This document shows, piece by piece, positions 1 through 6,119 of a stretch of 6,119 nucleotides of DNA; position 1 is the first letter of the stretch, and each line of letters begins with the position of its first letter. Both the position numbers and the translations under genes were made by a program. Origin of the DNA: a virus (Duplodnaviria > Heunggongvirae > Uroviricota > Caudoviricetes); IMG/VR virus record IMGVR_UViG_2690315994_000022, one strand, 5' to 3'. The notes beneath the pieces were generated by a model. That model was not told where the DNA came from. It saw nothing but the letters and a program-made list of their open reading frames with translations, and did no database searches.

Positions 1-432
1 TATATTTTCAGTGCCGATAAAAATGCGTTTTTCCCTGTGGAGCTTAAAATCGCTTATCAGGAATCCGGCGAATGGCCCGGTGATGGAATCGAAATTGACG
101 ACACTGTTGCCGCCGAATTTATGAAGGAAGCACCAGAAGGAAAATACAGAGGTGTCATCGACGGAATGCCTACATGGATTGATATTCCACCGCCAACTCA
201 TGAGGAACAAATTGCCGCAGCCGAACTGGAAAAGCAGCAATTGATTAATCAGGTCAACGAATACATAAACAGTAAGCAATGGCCTGGTAAAGCGGCGATT
301 GGTCGCCTGAAAGGTGAGGAACTGGCGCAATATAATTTGTGGCTGGATTATCTGGACGCACTGGAGCTGGTCGATACTTCCGGTGCGCCAGATATTGAAT
401 GGCCTACGCCTCCGGCAGTTCAGGCCAGATGA
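1..432 (+). CDS. tail fibre assembly protein (Tfa/U-type), 5'-truncated by the window edge; inverted partner copy (tfa')
   Basis: Frame 1 is open from base 1 to TGA at 430..432 (the supplied ORF starts at GTG 37 but the frame is open upstream). C-terminus LWLDYLDALELVDTSGAPDIEWPTPP matches the C-terminus of the minus-strand Tfa (AVLDYIDAVTATDTSTAPDVIWPELP), the conserved tail of phage tail-fibre assembly chaperones. Convergent with and overlapping the other tfa by 29 bp. Confidence 0.8.
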   Translation, partial: YIFSADKNAFFPVELKIAYQESGEWPGDGIEIDDTVAAEFMKEAPEGKYRGVIDGMPTWIDIPPPTHEEQIAAAELEKQQLINQVNEYINSKQWPGKAAIGRLKGEELAQYNLWLDYLDALELVDTSGAPDIEWPTPPAVQAR

Positions 433-997
433 CGTCCGGCGCTGTGCTGGTATCTGTTGCCGTCACCGCGTCAATATAATCCAGCACAGCGTTAAGTCGG
501 GTGTTTTCTGGCTGCGTCAGCTTCCGCCCGGCCTGTAATTTCAGTTGAATCAGACTGATGGAAGCCATTGCAGCATCAATCAGCGACTGGCGCTGTGCTT
601 CTGCCGCTTCTACTGCGGCGCTATGCGGTGCCTCGGTATCCGTCACCCATTTCTCACCATCCCATTTATCGTATGGCGTTAACGGTGAAAGCGTGACATA
701 ACCGTCTTTGATGGCACCGATATAATCCACTGTAACAGCTGCGCCATTTTCAGTTGAGTAAACGGTCTCATTGCGATGGTCTTCTTCATGGCTCCATCCC
801 TTACCCGTAAATACAGCCACTTTTCCCGGAATGTTTTCGCTCGGGTCAATACCAGTGGAACAGGCGGGCATACTTACGCCAGTATTAATATATTCATCAG
901 ACCAGCCGGTATATTCATACGTTACTGCATTATAATAAAAACAACGCATATCGCCCGGCACTGTAGCCAGCCCATTTTCATCAAAAACAGGTTTCAT
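404..997 (-). CDS. tail fibre assembly protein (Tfa)
   Basis: 197-aa ORF with ATG at 997..995 sharing one base with the tail-fibre stop (TAATG overlap). Same conserved C-terminal motif as tfa'. Sits directly downstream of the tail-fibre gene, as in Mu S-U, P2 H-G and e14 stf-tfa. Confidence 0.85.
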   Translation of the reverse strand: MKPVFDENGLATVPGDMRCFYYNAVTYEYTGWSDEYINTGVSMPACSTGIDPSENIPGKVAVFTGKGWSHEEDHRNETVYSTENGAAVTVDYIGAIKDGYVTLSPLTPYDKWDGEKWVTDTEAPHSAAVEAAEAQRQSLIDAAMASISLIQLKLQAGRKLTQPENTRLNAVLDYIDAVTATDTSTAPDVIWPELPEA

Positions 998-2100
998 TAT
1001 TTAGCCCTCACCAGAAAGTTAAATGCAATATTTCGTGGACGGGTTTCTGTACCTACATTTCCACTAATTTCACCATAACGTTTAACACTACGAGAGCTAA
1101 GAGCTCGTAGTGAGGAAGGCACCTTAAGACCGGGTTCGTCCGTTTTAACTATTCCCCCGTCACCATATGTAGCCAGTATTCCTGGGTTTACTCCTTCCCG
1201 TGCACTTCCTGCGGCAAGCCCGTCCCCCGTCCACAATTCCATATTGTGTGCATGATCCATAATTGTGTGTGATTGCCCTGAAAGTAGGGTACGTCCGACA
1301 TCAATCCCGCGCCCATCATCCCAGATACGAATGAAATCACCGCGTGCGTCAGGTAATGCCAGCGCCGGAAACACTTTCGCCAGCACAGGGTAATCAGTGG
1401 CAGAGAATTTCGCGCCGTTGAACTTCAAAAACACCATACCGGACCAGCTATCGATTACGGTATCTGGCATTGCAGCGGACGGCCAGAAGAACGGAACGCC
1501 AATAGCTGGAGCTCCTTCTCCCAAACCAAGGTTTTCGAGAGCCGTTTTCACCGTGCCATCCGATTTGATATCACCAAACGGATTCTTGCGGCTCAGGTAT
1601 TCAACAGCAAACCCCGATCCCAGCAATTCAACAAANNNNNNNNNNNNNNNNNNNNNNNNNNNNNNNNNNNNNNNNNNNNNNNNNNNNNNNNNNNNNNNNN
1701 NNNNNNNNNNNNNNNNNNNNNNNNNNNNNNNNNNNNNNNNNNNNNNNNNNNNNNNNAAACCAAGGTTTTCGAGAGCCGTTTTCACCGTGCCATCCGATTT
1801 GATATCACCAAACGGATTCTTGCGGCTCAGGTATTCAACAGCAAACCCCGATCCCAGCAATTCAACAAAACCGGGCAGATCACCATTATCAAGCACATCC
1901 CGTTGCGTTTTATCACTTACAAACTGGGCCAGAGCTGCAGCAATAAAGCTGGCCTGCCGAATAACCTTATTGACTTGCGCACTGGAGGCTTTCCCTGCTG
2001 TAAATCCGGATAAAAGCGCGGGCAACGCTTCCCATTCCTCCTGCGATATAACATTGGCATTTCGATCCGTTGCAAACGCTTTAAAGTCATTTTTCGTCAT
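997..2100 (-). CDS. tail fibre protein: constant N-terminal part plus exchangeable tail-collar-type C-terminal part; length inflated by a scaffold gap and a 234-bp duplication
   Basis: Start preferred at ATG 2100..2098 (MTKNDF...), forming an ATGA overlap with the upstream stop and preceded by GGGGAG about 10 nt away; the supplied ORF start at 2118 has its AGGAG too close. The C-terminal part (...[41 protein letters not shown]...) resembles the phage tail-collar motif. A crossover site lies in frame at 1516..1541. The ORF contains 121 N and a duplicated 78-codon block; the real product is probably about 289 aa. Confidence 0.75.
1516..1541. other. 26-bp gix/hix/cix/pix-type recombination crossover site (site 1) inside the tail-fibre ORF
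   Basis: TTCTCCCAAACC-AA-GGTTTTCGAGAG: two imperfect inverted 12-bp half-sites around a 2-bp core, with the AAACC-NN-GGTTT centre typical of Hin/Gin/Cin/Pin sites. Lies at the junction between the N-terminal and collar-type parts of the tail fibre, and a Pin invertase is encoded in the window. Confidence 0.65.
1523..1635. repeat. 113-bp exact direct repeat, copy A (left of the N gap)
   Basis: Compared base by base with 1757..1869: identical. Starts at the AAACC of crossover site 1 and ends at the first N. Confidence 0.95.
1636..1756. other. run of 121 N: scaffold/assembly gap, not biological sequence
   Basis: Uninterrupted n characters; flanked by identical 113-bp sequence on both sides. 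Confidence 0.98.
1757..1869. repeat. 113-bp exact direct repeat, copy B (right of the N gap)
   Basis: Identical to 1523..1635. The post-gap sequence begins inside the crossover site, at its AAACC. Confidence 0.95.
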
Positions 2101-2780
2101 CAGAGTAATACTCCCCATGCTCCTACATCAAAACCACTGATGAATTCGTTATCCATATCAAAACCAAAAAATTTTGAGCCTTCCGATGGGGTTTCCACCG
2201 AAGGTGTTTCAATGCCACCCGCCCATACCCCGGCGGCTTTTACTGTGAGATACCCCTGTTTAATTGCCGCAATTAACTCACGCGATACATCTGAAATATC
2301 AGTATCAGGAAAGACCCAGACCGATATCGTCATGTCCTGGTTATCGACTATCTGCATTCGCAGCCCGGATCCTGCTGTTGCCGCGTCAAGAATTGCCAGA
2401 AGCGAATCATTCCGTCCGTCCCAGTTATTAATCGCAATCTTCGCTTTAAGAATGACACGATAAGTTTCATCGCTGAGATACATGTATCCTGAATCAGGAT
2501 CGTATGGTCCCTGCCATACCCCCTGATCATATCCAAGCCCGTCGGTATCCCAGCTGAAATAGACACCTGAGATAGGCTGGCTGACAACACGGCTACGTCC
2601 GATCCACAATCCAAGAATGTCAAGTTGCACACCAACCGCAGAGTCAATATCAAATGCAGTAATCAGCCCTCTGGTGGCAGCCGCAACATCAATAAGTGGC
2701 CGGGTCATCAGATCAACATGCGCAAGAAATTTAGGTTTGGTGGCGTGGTAGTTCGTGATTAGTTCGGTGTATTTGCTCAT
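2100..2780 (-). CDS. phage tail/baseplate protein, Mu gp48 / YmfQ-like
   Basis: 226-aa ORF between the baseplate-J-like gene and the tail-fibre gene, the position occupied by Mu gp48, e14 YmfQ and P2 gpI. ATGA overlaps at both ends (2780..2777 and 2102..2098). Family assignment is by position and general resemblance, not a search. Confidence 0.6.
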   Translation of the reverse strand: MSKYTELITNYHATKPKFLAHVDLMTRPLIDVAAATRGLITAFDIDSAVGVQLDILGLWIGRSRVVSQPISGVYFSWDTDGLGYDQGVWQGPYDPDSGYMYLSDETYRVILKAKIAINNWDGRNDSLLAILDAATAGSGLRMQIVDNQDMTISVWVFPDTDISDVSRELIAAIKQGYLTVKAAGVWAGGIETPSVETPSEGSKFFGFDMDNEFISGFDVGAWGVLL

Positions 2781-3976
2781 GACTCCACCGTTATAACGAT
2801 ATTTTCCGGGGTACAGGACACAGATTCGTTGTATCTGATATCAATGTTTGATGACGACAAAGCCCCCGGGGATTTCCCAATCGTCAGTTCCTGAATATCG
2901 TAATAGCGTGCATTCCCGCCACTCACCACGCCAAGATTCGCCGGTGAGTAAATGCGACTTAAAAGGACCGAATCACCAATCATCAGACTATTGATATAGT
3001 CGGAAATAGCCTGCTGGATCTGCTGCCCTATCTGTGAGGTATAACCCGTAAAAACTTGTAATTTGATCCGGGCATAAACAGGCACATCACTGGAACGCGA
3101 GAATTTGATTACATGGGGATTGCCGTATTTATCCGGAACCGTAACGGATGTTGTACCGTGAGTGGCTGTCCCCTGGCCTTTATTTCCTCTGATAGCCTGA
3201 GCAATATCCGTCACATCACCGCCATCCACAATTACAGCAACAGAGTGTGGCGGTAACCCGTTACCGTCCTCCGAACCAGTATCGTTTTCATAGAGTTTGT
3301 GGCGGGTTACACCGGTAACATTAGAAACAGCACCATCCAGTGCTTCAAATGGGGTTATTGATGGCAACGCAACACTTTGCGACTGGCGGATACGTAACTC
3401 CGCATCAGTTTCTGCTGGAGTGCCTACAGTAGCTGCAGCAGGATTGGTTACCGAAACCCAGCCACGGGTTGGCGTATTAATTTCAGTGATAGTTCCAGCC
3501 AGCGCCGCCACTGCACCACTGACGGAACATGTTGCGGTCACCATCACTGTACCATCCACGCCGACCACCACTGAAGCAGGCAAACGCCATATCACATTAT
3601 TACTGTCTTTCACGCTGCCATTAATGATGGTTGTTCCGGCAGTTCCTGTAAGAAGCAAATCAACCGTAGAATTCGTCGCGCCTTTACGTGAAATACCATT
3701 TATTTTCACGTTACTGGTCAGTGCAGCCCCATAGCCGGTTGCCGGTGAAAAACAGTTGTAGACAGTTATCGCCATATTATTGGCATCATGAATCGCCAGC
3801 GCCATCAGAGCCACCATCTGGCCGTCTTTGCTGTCCGGTTCGAGGTAGGCATCACTGCCATAAATCTGCTGAAAATAGCTAATCAGGGTGCTGAGTATCG
3901 TCTGATAATCAGGCGCACTGATCCCCTCCGCGGTTACCTTTGCAGATAAACCGAGAGAATCAAGGTTCAGAGCCAT
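2777..3976 (-). CDS. baseplate J-like protein (Mu gp47 / P2 gpJ family)
   Basis: 399-aa ORF; size, composition and position immediately upstream of the gp48-like and tail-fibre genes fit the baseplate J family. GGAGG lies just upstream of ATG 3976. The stop overlaps the next gene's start (ATGA). Confidence 0.8.
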   Translation of the reverse strand: MALNLDSLGLSAKVTAEGISAPDYQTILSTLISYFQQIYGSDAYLEPDSKDGQMVALMALAIHDANNMAITVYNCFSPATGYGAALTSNVKINGISRKGATNSTVDLLLTGTAGTTIINGSVKDSNNVIWRLPASVVVGVDGTVMVTATCSVSGAVAALAGTITEINTPTRGWVSVTNPAAATVGTPAETDAELRIRQSQSVALPSITPFEALDGAVSNVTGVTRHKLYENDTGSEDGNGLPPHSVAVIVDGGDVTDIAQAIRGNKGQGTATHGTTSVTVPDKYGNPHVIKFSRSSDVPVYARIKLQVFTGYTSQIGQQIQQAISDYINSLMIGDSVLLSRIYSPANLGVVSGGNARYYDIQELTIGKSPGALSSSNIDIRYNESVSCTPENIVITVES

Positions 3977-4141
3977 TACGCCTCCGATGTAACAGTCGTT
4001 ATTCCATAAAGAGTGTCGATTTCAGCGGAAAACATGACACGTCGGGTCGTGGTATCCACCGTCGTATTGAAAGAGAGGATTGATTTAACGCCCNAAACCA
4101 ACGTTTATGAAAATGCAGAAATAACGAGCAAATGGCATCAT
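3976..4141 (-). pseudogene. short ORF or 3' gene remnant upstream of J that reads through crossover site 2; frame depends on the ambiguous base at 4094
   Basis: With the n at 4094 omitted, the minus strand reads MMPFARYFCIFINVGLGVKSILSFNTTVDTTTRRVMFSAEIDTLYGITTVTSEA and stops at TAA 3978..3976, sharing one base with the J start (TAATG). With n kept as a real base the frame stops at 4087..4085. No convincing RBS at its 5' end. Confidence 0.3.
4088..4113. other. second gix/pix-type crossover site (site 2), 55 bp upstream of pin; contains an ambiguous base
   Basis: ACGCCCnAAACC-AA-CGTTTATGAAAA has the same AAACC-AA-(C/G)GTTT centre as site 1. If the n is dropped, the left arm AACGCCCAAACC matches site 1's TTCTCCCAAACC at 9 of 12 positions. 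Its position just upstream of the invertase gene is the canonical one for the invertase-proximal site in Gin/Cin/Pin systems. Confidence 0.55.
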
Positions 4142-4154
4142 TCCTGCTTTTGTC

Positions 4155-4160
4155 AGGGAG
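4155..4160 (+). promoter_or_regulatory. Shine-Dalgarno sequence for pin
   Basis: AGGGAG, 7 nt upstream of ATG 4168. Confidence 0.5.
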
Positions 4161-4167
4161 ATCTACC

Positions 4168-4722
4168 ATGCTTATTGGCTATGTACGTGTGTCAACAAAT
4201 GACCAGAACACAGATCTACAACGTAATGCGCTGAACTGTGCAGGATGCGAGCTGATTTTTGAAGACAAGATAAGCGGTACAAAGTCCGAAAGGCCGGGAC
4301 TGAAAAAACTGCTCAGGACATTATCGGCAGGTGATACGCTGGTGGTCTGGAAACTGGACCGACTGGGGCGCAGTATGCGGCATCTTGTCGTGCTGGTGGA
4401 GGAGTTGCGCGAACGAGGCATCAACTTTCGTAGTCTGACGGATTCAATTGATACCAGTACCCCAATGGGGCGCTTTTTCTTTCATGTGATGGGTGCCCTG
4501 GCTGAAATGGAACGTGAACTGATTGTTGAACGAACAAAAGCAGGACTGGAAGCTGCTCGCGCACAGGGACGAATTGGGGGACGTCGTCCCAAACTTACAC
4601 CAGAACAATGGGCGCAGGCCGGGCGATTAATTGCATCAGGCGTTCCTCGCCAGAAGGTGGCGATCATCTATGATGTTGGCGTATCGACTTTGTATAAGAA
4701 GTTTCCGGTCGGAGATAAATGA
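4168..4722 (+). CDS. pin: serine DNA invertase of the Pin/Gin/Hin/Cin (Din) family
   Basis: 184-aa product starting MLIGYVRVSTNDQNTDLQRNAL, with the catalytic-serine motif YVRVSTNDQ, the conserved WKLDRLGRS and GALAEMERELI blocks, and a C-terminal helix-turn-helix (VAIIYDVGVSTLYKK). Close to Gin/PinE as remembered. Start chosen at ATG 4168 rather than the supplied ORF's 4132 because of the RBS and family N-terminus. Confidence 0.95.
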   Translation: MLIGYVRVSTNDQNTDLQRNALNCAGCELIFEDKISGTKSERPGLKKLLRTLSAGDTLVVWKLDRLGRSMRHLVVLVEELRERGINFRSLTDSIDTSTPMGRFFFHVMGALAEMERELIVERTKAGLEAARAQGRIGGRRPKLTPEQWAQAGRLIASGVPRQKVAIIYDVGVSTLYKKFPVGDK

Positions 4723-5027
4723 AACCGTAGCACGTCGTATGCAAGAACGTGCCACGGCTGGCTGATGGACGTTCGATAGCGCGAGTTTGAATGAAAATCA
4801 GCCGGAGATGATTTTACATAATTGCTACGGAATTATTCAATACAGGAATTGCTTGTGTATGCATGGATTGACCTGAAATATTCCCGAAAATTTCTCTAAA
4901 AAACTCGAAAAAAATGGTAACTAATTGAATGTATTAATATGTAATAGTACGTGTTAGAGATTAAAAGATGAGCATAAATTTATTTAACACATTAATTCTA
5001 AAAGATTTTGTTGTTTGTTGACGAAAA

Positions 5028-5052
5028 CAGGAATCGTGTTCGGTCTCTTTTT
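5028..5052 (+). ncRNA. sdsR: probable 3'-terminal fragment of sRNA SdsR (RyeB), i.e. candidate prophage attachment-site core
   Basis: CAGGAATCGTGTTCGGTCTCTTTTT matches, with one mismatch, what I recall as the SdsR terminator 3' half (..CAGGAAUCGUAUUCGGUCUCUUUUU). The upstream arm of the terminator stem is not complementary here, so only the 3' part is present. From memory, not searched. Confidence 0.35.
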
Positions 5053-5171
5053 ATCTGTTAAAAGCCAGAAGCATTTCCTTCGCTGACTTTATAGTCAACC
5101 ATAACACACACTCTACTGTCTGAGTCCAGCGTTTTTTAACATTCTTGTTAAGATTATGTGATCTTTAGCGC

Positions 5172-5177
5172 GGGAGG
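5172..5177 (+). promoter_or_regulatory. Shine-Dalgarno sequence for pphA
   Basis: GGGAGG, 9 nt upstream of ATG 5187. Confidence 0.5.
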
Positions 5178-5186
5178 AAAATATTG

Positions 5187-5843
5187 ATGAAACAGCCTGC
5201 GCCCGTTTATCAGAGAATTGCGGGTCATCAATGGCGACATATCTGGCTTTCTGGCGATATACACGGTTGTCTTGAGCAGTTGCGCCGCAAATTATGGCAT
5301 TGTCGTTTTGATCCGTGGCGAGATTTACTTATCTCAGTGGGAGACGTTATCGATCGTGGGCCGCAAAGTTTACGTTGTCTGCAGTTACTGGAACAACATT
5401 GGGTTCGTGCGGTAAGAGGCAATCATGAACAGATGGCGATGGATGCGCTGGCATCCCAGCAGATGTCTTTGTGGTTGATGAATGGCGGCGACTGGTTTAT
5501 TGCGCTGGCAGATAATCAACAGAAACAAGCGAAAACGGCGCTGGAAAAATGTCAGCATTTGCCCTTTATTCTTGAAGTACACAGCCGCACCGGCAAACAT
5601 GTTATTGCTCATGCCGATTATCCAGATGATGTTTATGAATGGCAAAAGGACGTTGATTTGCATCAGGTCTTGTGGAGCCGCTCGCGATTAAGTGAACGCC
5701 AAAAAGGGCAGGGAATTACAGGTGCTGATCATTTCTGGTTTGGTCATACACCGTTGCGCCATCGCGTGGATATTGGCAACCTGCATTATATTGATACCGG
5801 CGCTGTCTTTGGGGGCGAACTGACTTTCGTGCAATTGCAATAA
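5187..5843 (+). CDS. pphA: serine/threonine protein phosphatase 1 (PPP-family metallophosphatase)
   Basis: 218-aa product MKQPAPVYQRIAGHQWRHIWLSGDIHGC... with the metallophosphatase motifs GDIHG, GDVIDRG and GNHE; recognised as E. coli PphA/PrpA. Start at ATG 5187 (the supplied ORF begins at TTG 5184). Confidence 0.9.
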   Translation: MKQPAPVYQRIAGHQWRHIWLSGDIHGCLEQLRRKLWHCRFDPWRDLLISVGDVIDRGPQSLRCLQLLEQHWVRAVRGNHEQMAMDALASQQMSLWLMNGGDWFIALADNQQKQAKTALEKCQHLPFILEVHSRTGKHVIAHADYPDDVYEWQKDVDLHQVLWSRSRLSERQKGQGITGADHFWFGHTPLRHRVDIGNLHYIDTGAVFGGELTFVQLQ

Positions 5844-6035
5844 TTAAAAATCACCATACTCCTGTGCTGGTCGCCAGAAACCATCTATAAAATCCTCAAT
5901 CGGAAAACAACCGCCATGACGGATCCGTTGATCGCTCATAGAATAAAGACACTGCTGTTCCGTGTTGTAGACATCCACAACAATATCTTCACAACCGCCA
6001 TCCAGGTAGCAAACAAAAAGTACCAGCGCGAACAT
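5844..6035 (-). CDS. yebW: small conserved protein, YebW-like (63 aa); the ORF stays open to the window edge so the start is uncertain
   Basis: Minus-strand ORF ending at TAA 5846..5844, directly abutting the pphA stop. An internal ATG at 6035..6033 gives a 63-aa product (MFALVLFVCYLDGGCEDIVVDV...EYGDF), the size I recall for YebW beside pphA in E. coli K-12. Symbol is from memory. Confidence 0.45.
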   Translation of the reverse strand: MFALVLFVCYLDGGCEDIVVDVYNTEQQCLYSMSDQRIRHGGCFPIEDFIDGFWRPAQEYGDF

Positions 6036-6119
6036 TTCATCCCCGAAGTGTGGTGCCGTACCGTTAAGTTTAGGAGAGATTTTACAACGGGGGAATAACC
6101 AGGACAAATAACCCGCCAT

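What the first reader, a model, noticed from the sequence alone, without database searches (positions are those of the whole stretch)
4088..4113. Invertase-proximal crossover site carries the only isolated ambiguous base in the window
The single n sits immediately 5' of AAACC, which is the same point at which the post-gap contig at site 1 begins. This fits read-population heterogeneity at the arm position where alternative junctions first diverge, rather than random sequencing noise. A -35-like TTGATT (4080..4085) lies just left of the site, so a pin promoter overlapping the site is possible but weak (no good -10).
Basis: partly seen in the sequence, partly recalled or inferred. Interest (0 to 1): 0.55.

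Follow-up and report, generated by a model that had tools for sequence, protein, structure and literature searches.

The report
Scaffold join at Pin recombination site
The lone N is an assembly join placed at a well-known Pin invertase recombination site of an E. coli prophage, at the base where the two alternative tail-fibre arms differ (C or T); it reflects ordinary, known biology and an assembly artefact, not a new feature.

Summary
Base 4094 is the only isolated N. It lies directly 5' of AAACC, in the same register as the post-gap contig start at 1757.

The N also marks a chimeric join:
- Left of it (up to 4093) is the interior of a baseplate "sheath-initiator" gene.
- Right of it (from 4095) is the true pin-proximal crossover site (AAACC-AA-CGTTTATGAAAA), followed by pinE and pphA.
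- None of 5,426 complete E. coli genomes has these two flanks adjacent.
- In every finished locus inspected the order is sheath initiator > baseplate J > wedge > Sc |L| Sv U U' Sv' |R| pin, with L and R inverted. In the window L and R are direct.

Contig A (1-1635) has two possible successors: the Sc contig B (as in strain DEC5E) or the pin contig C (as in strain DEC5B). The scaffold lays both in a line.

In all four complete genomes carrying the window's exact Sv arm, the partner Sv' arm differs at the base 5' of AAACC (C versus T). The ideas of a mixed base inside an intact 26-bp site and of a TTGATT promoter are not.

This is known Pin/P-segment biology and of low interest.

The parts
4094..4094 (.). 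Single N: a join or placeholder between contig B (ends 4093) and contig C (starts 4095). It is also the position of the C/T difference between the Sv and Sv' arms.
   Evidence: only isolated N. (similarity to finished genomes breaks exactly here). (arm C versus T).
4095..4113 (+). Genuine part of the pin-proximal crossover site R: last 5 nt of the inner half-site (AAACC, 4095-4099), core dinucleotide AA (4100-4101), outer half-site CGTTTATGAAAA (4102-4113).
   Evidence: Identical in 17 of the 19 finished or long loci listed; L004 and L018 have other outer half-sites. The core and half-site layout is known from the Gin/Hin/Cin/Pin family (own knowledge).
4088..4093 (+). ACGCCC. This is not site sequence; it is the last bases of the foreign flank. 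The canonical site has TTCTCC here.
3976..4093 (-). 3' 118 nt of a 354-nt sheath-initiator (PF10934, gp46/W-like) gene, cut off at the N. In finished genomes it continues ...AACGCCC[C/T]G[C/A]GTTTCGAGG.
1516..1541 (+). Complete crossover site L inside the tail-fibre gene: TTCTCCCAAACC-AA-GGTTTTCGAGAG. It contains the published e14 P-segment repeat CCTTCTCCCAAACCAA (1514-1529). In the window it is in direct, not inverted, orientation relative to R.
   Evidence: PMC12529663.
1636..1756 (.). 121-N scaffold gap. It is spurious, because the flanking 113 nt (1523-1635 and 1757-1869) are the same sequence.
4168..4722 (+). pinE-type serine DNA invertase, 184 aa.
   Evidence: Resolvase + HTH_7 domains. 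Matches the Gin structure 3UJ3 at E = 3.8e-94 over residues 1-181. Annotated pinE in finished genomes.
997..2118 (-). Tail-fibre gene: constant part Sc (right of site L) fused to variable part Sv (left of L). It is artificially lengthened by the gap and the duplication.
1..997 (.). Two convergent tail-fibre assembly (chaperone) genes of the invertible cassette: U' (about 1-432, +) and U (404-997, -).
2100..3976 (-). Wedge-1/DUF2612 gene (2100-2780) and baseplate J gene (2777-3976), both part of contig B.
5187..5843 (+). pphA (Ser/Thr phosphatase), the chromosomal gene flanking the prophage end.

Best explanation
The window is a scaffold of three short-read contigs: A = 1-1635, B = 1757-4093, C = 4095-6119. 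It covers a Pin-invertible tail-fibre cassette of an E. coli prophage inserted next to pphA.

The real locus reads: sheath initiator > baseplate J > wedge > Sc |L| Sv > U > < U' < Sv' |R| pin > pphA. Pin is a Gin-like serine invertase. It cuts both 26-bp sites at the central AA and flips the segment, so the constant tail-fibre part Sc is fused to either Sv or Sv'.

The two inner arms are identical from the core outwards only for AAACC. They then differ (C in the Sv arm, T in the Sv' arm). An assembly graph built from DNA containing both junction types therefore branches at that base. This explains why B and C both start at AAACC. It also explains why A, which ends in the Sv arm, has two successors: B (Sc side, orientation 1) and C (pin side, orientation 2).

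The scaffolder laid both successors in a line, A-B-C. It separated B from C with a one-base placeholder, the N at 4094. The base at 4094 is thus not a sequenced position of a real continuous molecule, and the DNA left of it is not part of the site.

Shown: the foreign flank, the canonical order, the C/T arm difference in relatives, and the existence of both real junctions. Inferred: that the source culture held both orientations, and how the scaffolder behaved.
For: - The junction is unique. No place in 5,426 complete genomes covers 80% or more of 3700-5250, and matches on the pin side begin at 4091/4092. The stretch 3300-4093 matches at 100% up to 4093 and then continues into the sheath-initiator gene. 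The junction pattern has 0 hits in GTDB species representatives and in metagenome contigs.
- All 10 loci encoding the identical Pin protein, and all annotated finished loci fetched, have the canonical order with L and R inverted. In the window L and R are direct.
- blastn of A, B and C on finished loci gives rc(C)-Sv'-A-B in DEC5E, with a 113-nt A/B overlap, and rc(B)-Sv'-A-C in DEC5B. A>B and A>C are therefore both real adjacencies, in exactly the orientations used in the window.
- A junction built from window 1422-1521 + C + window 4095-4194 matches DEC5B at 100% over 201 nt. The T-arm version matches at 99.5%.
- The arm difference C versus T directly 5' of AAACC is seen in 4 of 4 genomes with the window's exact Sv arm.
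- L contains the published e14 inversion repeat CCTTCTCCCAAACCAA. Pin is Gin-like.
Against: - No reads are available, so the mixture of orientations is not shown. The Sv' arm of this strain lies outside the window, so its T is inferred from relatives.
- I could not identify the assembler. I also cannot explain why the A-B gap was written as 121 N when the contigs overlap by 113 nt.
- Why contig B ends at 4093 is unproven. The next base is polymorphic in this phage family (T in 2 and C in 11 of 13 finished loci), which suggests a graph branch there.
- Wild-type K-12 shows only a small inverted fraction of the e14 P segment (PMC12529663). A substantial mixture in the source culture is therefore not guaranteed.
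Confidence: 0.65

Rival explanations
1. The N is still an assembly join with a foreign flank, but the contig ends at AAACC come from paralogous repeats rather than from inversion in the culture. Under this reading, a second Pin-type prophage in the same genome (for example e14 or a yfhH-adjacent one) shares the Sc-side and pin-side sequence but has different arms.
For: The 3700-5250 query (pin side plus pphA) has a median of 2 and up to 7 places per genome. The first 100 nt of contig C are identical in the separate yfhH-adjacent prophage of DEC5B. The 121 nt around the Sc side of L are 100% identical in another strain's prophage (L008). The base before AAACC varies among cassettes: C, T or A.
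Against: This does not explain why C was placed downstream of A and B in exactly the orientation of the real A>C adjacency seen in DEC5B. Under this model that placement would be a chance misjoin, roughly 1 in 4.
Confidence: 0.25
2. The N is a true ambiguous base call (for example Y reduced to N) inside a really continuous molecule. In this strain a rearrangement has placed the baseplate module, inverted, directly against pin.
For: The geometry equals an inversion of the block from the middle of the sheath-initiator gene to R. Both flanks share CC(C) next to the N, and both contexts are C/T polymorphic.
Against: This junction is in 0 of 5,426 complete genomes, and the shorter junction pattern has 0 hits in the two large collections. 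The break is 5-6 nt from the AA core, where serine invertases cut (own knowledge). It coincides with the start register of another contig (1757), which is an assembly signature. L and R would then be direct repeats, a configuration this invertase family does not normally use (own knowledge).
Confidence: 0.05
3. Pin-mediated inversion at a secondary (quasi) site inside the sheath-initiator gene. This would be analogous to the quasi-cix sites of P1 Cin.
For: In finished genomes the sequence just beyond 4093 (GCGTTTCGAGGA) matches the L outer half-site GGTTTTCGAGAG at 8 of 12 positions, and the putative core would fall at 4093-4094 (my own comparison of the sequences printed).
Against: The other half matches the TTCTCCCAAACC half-site at only 5 of 12 positions, and the core would be CC or CT, not AA. 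The product retains AAACC of R's inner half, so exchange would not have occurred at R's core. AAACCAACGTTT is not a Pin half-site (sequences; the comparison is my own).
Confidence: 0.02

Closest known systems
e14 P segment / PinE of E. coli K-12
   Same: Same gene name in PGAP annotation (pinE). Same inversion repeat, CCTTCTCCCAAACCAA, at site L. Same cassette logic: a constant tail-fibre part fused to alternative C-termini, plus two chaperone genes.
   Different: The prophage backbone is different (sheath-initiator / baseplate J / wedge-1 type, inserted next to pphA) and so are the variable cassettes. In the window the locus is mis-scaffolded, so the sites appear direct.
Phage Mu G segment / Gin and phage P1 C segment / Cin
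   Same: Pin matches the Gin structure 3UJ3 at E = 3.8e-94 over residues 1-181. The sites are 26 bp with a 2-bp core, and the invertase gene lies just outside one site (layout from own knowledge; sequences).
   Different: The outer half-sites and the cassettes differ. Fis enhancer presence was not established here.
Contig breaks and misjoins at invertible DNA in short-read assemblies
   Same: Contig ends lie at the first variable base next to the inverted repeats. There is a duplicated 113-nt contig overlap, N placeholders, and two alternative successors of one contig.
   Different: The software is unknown. A one-N placeholder for an abutting or negative gap is my recollection of the behaviour of scaffolders such as ABySS and SSPACE. 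It was not verified in the papers read.

Membership tests
Gin/Hin/Cin/Pin DNA-invertase system | Small serine recombinase with an N-terminal resolvase domain carrying the catalytic Ser in the VRVST motif, and a C-terminal HTH | tested here: met
   184 aa, starting MLIGYVRVSTNDQ.... PF00239 + PF02796. Gin 3UJ3 at E = 3.8e-94 over residues 1-181.
Gin/Hin/Cin/Pin DNA-invertase system | 26-bp crossover site: two 12-bp imperfectly symmetric half-sites around a 2-bp core | tested here: met
   Site L at 1516-1541, TTCTCCCAAACC-AA-GGTTTTCGAGAG, contains the published e14 repeat.
Gin/Hin/Cin/Pin DNA-invertase system | A complete second site next to the invertase gene | tested here: inconclusive
   Only 19 of 26 nt (4095-4113) are genuine in the window. 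Positions 4088-4093 are foreign and 4094 is N. Finished relatives have the complete site TTCTCC[C/T/A]AAACC-AA-CGTTTATGAAAA.
Gin/Hin/Cin/Pin DNA-invertase system | The two sites are in inverted orientation and bracket the invertible segment | tested here: not met
   In the window as assembled, L and R are both on the + strand, so they are direct. They are inverted in every finished locus where both sites were located. I attribute the failure to the scaffold, not to the biology.
Gin/Hin/Cin/Pin DNA-invertase system | The segment carries alternative tail-fibre C-termini with their assembly chaperones | tested here: met
   Sv, U and U' are in the window. Sv' lies beyond the left edge and is present in relatives.
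Gin/Hin/Cin/Pin DNA-invertase system | Fis-bound recombinational enhancer in the 5' part of the invertase gene | tested here: inconclusive
   A crude Fis-core scan finds candidates at 4261 and 4311, which are 50 bp apart rather than 48. The motif is too degenerate to decide.
Scaffold-join placeholder (assembly artefact) | The two flanks are not adjacent in finished genomes of close relatives | tested here: met
   0 of 5,426 complete genomes; canonical order in all loci; 0 hits in two further collections.
Scaffold-join placeholder (assembly artefact) | Each flank ends at a position where alternative sequences exist (a graph branch) | tested here: met
   The base before AAACC is C, T or A among arms. 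The base after AACGCCC is C or T among phages.
Scaffold-join placeholder (assembly artefact) | No reads span the join | not testable with these tools
   Reads of the source assembly are not available.

The most novel reading that the evidence does not exclude
The join is real. In this strain a roughly 4.3-kb block (3' part of the sheath-initiator gene, baseplate J, wedge, tail fibre and the cassette) has been inverted against pin by an aberrant exchange 5-6 bp away from the normal core. This would possibly be an off-register Pin event at a CC dinucleotide shared by a quasi-site and the real site.
Probability: 0.04. Interest if true: 0.4.

Novelty: already known. Interest (0 to 1): 0.1.

Why it matters
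The result matters mainly as a caution. The window's gene order (baseplate genes abutting pin, two sites in direct orientation, an apparent 26-bp site at 4088-4113, a 121-N gap) should not be read as biology. The correct local structure is the ordinary Pin-invertible tail-fibre cassette. It is mildly useful that the contig ends and the scaffold order give indirect evidence that both orientations of the cassette were present in the sequenced DNA. It is also mildly useful that the two arms of this cassette differ at one base (C/T) next to AAACC, because that base can serve as a read-level marker of orientation.

Tried and rejected
- **Real Pin product at a quasi-site.** Rejected: the junction is not at the AA core, and the candidate quasi-site is poor (8 of 12 plus 5 of 12 matches, core CC or CT).
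- **Promoter overlapping the site.** The sigma-70 scan finds none in window 3950-4300 or in the canonical DEC5B locus. TTGATT lies in the foreign flank.
- **Junction searches.** The pattern GATTTAACGCCC(N0-1)AAACCAACGTTTATG gave 0 hits in GTDB representatives and in metagenome contigs.
- **Documentation of single-N placeholders.** Two paper look-ups gave no usable statement, so that point rests on my own recollection.
- **Fis-site scan.** Inconclusive.
- **Contig B as a collapsed two-prophage repeat ending at a T/C site.** Plausible but not demonstrable. The DEC5E and DEC5B copies differ elsewhere as well.
- **Finding the source assembly through the exact Pin protein.** The protein occurs in 572 collection blocks, and only long canonical contigs were shown.

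Full report
**What is in the window**

The window holds the distal part of an E. coli prophage tail module next to the chromosomal gene pphA. The features are:

| Window coordinates | Strand | Feature |
|---|---|---|
| about 1-432 | + | U' tail-fibre chaperone |
| 404-997 | - | U tail-fibre chaperone |
| 997-2118 | - | tail-fibre gene, interrupted by a 121-N gap at 1636-1756 |
| 2100-2780 | - | wedge-1/DUF2612 gene |
| 2777-3976 | - | baseplate J gene |
| 3976-4093 | - | last 118 nt of a 354-nt sheath-initiator (PF10934) gene |
| 4094 | . | the N |
| 4168-4722 | + | pinE-type invertase |
| 5187-5843 | + | pphA |

The invertase has Resolvase and HTH_7 domains. It matches the Gin structure 3UJ3 at E = 3.8e-94 over residues 1-181.

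**Check of the observation**

- Only two ambiguous runs exist, and 4094 is the only single N.
- The N is followed by AAACC-AA-CGTTTATGAAAA.
- The contig after the 121-N gap starts at 1757 with AAACC-AA-GGTTTTCGAGAG, in the same register.
- TTGATT is at 4080-4085.
- In addition, 1523-1635 equals 1757-1869 (113 nt). In finished genomes the two contigs overlap by exactly those 113 nt. The 121-N gap is therefore spurious, and the tail-fibre ORF is artificially lengthened.

**The N sits on a chimeric join**

- A query spanning the N (3700-5250) is not covered to 80% by any place in 5,426 complete E. coli genomes. All pin-side matches begin at 4091/4092.
- The left side (3300-4093) matches finished genomes at up to 100% identity, right up to 4093. 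There it continues as ...AACGCCC[C/T]G[C/A]GTTTCGAGG, the interior of the sheath-initiator gene.
- The right side continues leftwards in finished genomes as ...TTCTCC[C/T/A], the arm of a variable tail-fibre segment.
- The junction pattern has no hit in the GTDB representatives or in the metagenome contigs.

**Canonical structure**

All ten loci that encode the identical Pin protein, and all annotated finished loci fetched, have the classical Gin/Cin/Pin-type layout: baseplate genes > Sc |L| Sv > U > < U' < Sv' |R| recombinase. Those with the window's backbone read sheath initiator > baseplate J > wedge > Sc |L| ... |R| pin. The two sites are inverted in each.
- Site L in the window (1516-1541) contains the repeat CCTTCTCCCAAACCAA, at which the e14 P segment is reported to invert (PMC12529663).
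- In the window, however, L and R lie on the same strand, so they are direct. This is not the configuration used by this invertase family (own knowledge).

**How the scaffold arose**

I treated the window as three contigs: A = 1-1635, B = 1757-4093, C = 4095-6119. I aligned them to finished loci.
- DEC5E reads rc(C)-Sv'-A-B.
- DEC5B carries the same cassette flipped and reads rc(B)-Sv'-A-C.
- The Sv end of A therefore has two real successors, B in one orientation of the cassette and C in the other. The window lists them one after the other, each in the correct orientation relative to A.
- A junction built from the window's own Sv arm + C + the window's pin side matches DEC5B at 100% over 201 nt and occurs in 249 genomes. 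The T-arm junction occurs in 162 genomes.

**Why the break is at this base**

Four complete genomes carry the window's exact Sv arm (GGAGCTCCTTCTCC-C-AAACC): SF-173, DEC5B, EcE.CRE.COL and FAM21845. In all four the partner Sv' arm is CGCCGCTTCTCC-T-AAACC.
- Reading outwards from the core, the two arms are identical for AAACC and first differ at the base that corresponds to 4094 next to pin and to 1522/1756 next to Sc.
- If both junction types are in the reads, a de Bruijn-type graph branches exactly there. This accounts for B and C both starting at AAACC, and for A ending one shared 113-nt word later. This step is inference.
- With a single orientation and a single prophage, the L and R junctions share at most 7-nt exact words either side of the variable base. 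That is too short to break contigs.
- The right end of B is likewise followed, in relatives, by a polymorphic base: T in 2 and C in 11 of 13 loci.

- The idea that the N marks the arm position where alternative junctions first diverge is borne out by the arm comparison.
- The N is a join or placeholder, not a mixed call inside intact DNA.
- Positions 4088-4093 are not site sequence.
- The proposed -35 (TTGATT) belongs to the foreign gene fragment.
- No sigma-70-like promoter is detected at the site, in the window or in the canonical DEC5B locus.

**Rivals**

- **A second Pin-type prophage in the genome.** This could create the same graph branches without any inversion in the culture. Such paralogs are common (median 2 places per genome) and can be identical over the relevant 100-120 nt. 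It does not explain the placement of C in exactly the orientation of the real A>C adjacency. I give it about 0.25.
- **A real rearrangement, including a Pin event at a quasi-site.** This is unlikely. The exchange point is 5-6 nt from the AA core, the candidate quasi-site is poor, the junction is unique among thousands of genomes, and it coincides with an assembly register.

**Mechanism of the real element (established knowledge; not tested here)**

Pin dimers bind the two inverted 26-bp sites. With a Fis-bound enhancer they form an invertasome, cut at the central AA, rotate and religate. This flips the roughly 1.9-kb cassette and swaps the C-terminal receptor-binding part of the tail fibre together with its chaperone. 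A crude search for the enhancer was inconclusive.

**Verdict**

This is known biology (a Pin/P-segment-type invertible tail-fibre cassette) seen through an assembly artefact. Interest is low.

Noticed in passing
window 1523-1635, 1636-1756, 1757-1869: The 121-N gap is flanked by an exact 113-nt duplicate. The two contigs overlap, so the gap is spurious and the tail-fibre ORF 997-2118 is artificially lengthened. The 113-nt overlap may equal the assembler's k-mer size.
   Followed up: yes
window 1516-1541 versus 4088-4113: The two crossover sites are in direct orientation in the window. They are inverted in every finished locus where both sites were located.
   Followed up: yes
L004 (SF-173), L018 (FAM21845), L017 (EcE.CRE.COL), L005 (DEC5B): The same invertible cassette (99.3-99.5% identical to window 1-1534) sits in three different prophage backbones: P2-like (gpW/J/I), Mu-like (GP46/YmfQ) and the sheath-initiator/wedge-1 type. 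The outer half-sites differ: GGTATGTGAGAA, GGTAATCAAGAA and GGTTTTCGAGAG on the fibre side; CGTTTAAGAAAA, CGTTTTCGTTTT and CGTTTATGAAAA on the recombinase side. This points to modular exchange of the cassette.
   Followed up: partly
L012 versus L013, L007 versus L008: Pairs of genomes carry the same arms swapped between the Sc side and the pin side. These are natural examples of the cassette fixed in opposite orientations.
   Followed up: partly
window 4093, and the continuation in L001-L015: Just beyond the end of contig B, finished genomes read [C/T]G[C/A]GTTTCGAGGA. In most of them this matches the L outer half-site GGTTTTCGAGAG at 8 of 12 positions. It is probably coincidence and does not fit a Pin quasi-site.
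   Followed up: partly
window 4723-5186: A roughly 460-nt AT-rich non-coding spacer lies between pin and pphA. It is conserved in relatives and presumably contains the prophage end or attachment site. It was not analysed.
   Followed up: no
window 5844-6119 (-): The yebW-like ORF reads as 91 aa to the window edge. Gene calls in relatives give either 63 or 91 aa, so the start codon is ambiguous.
   Followed up: no
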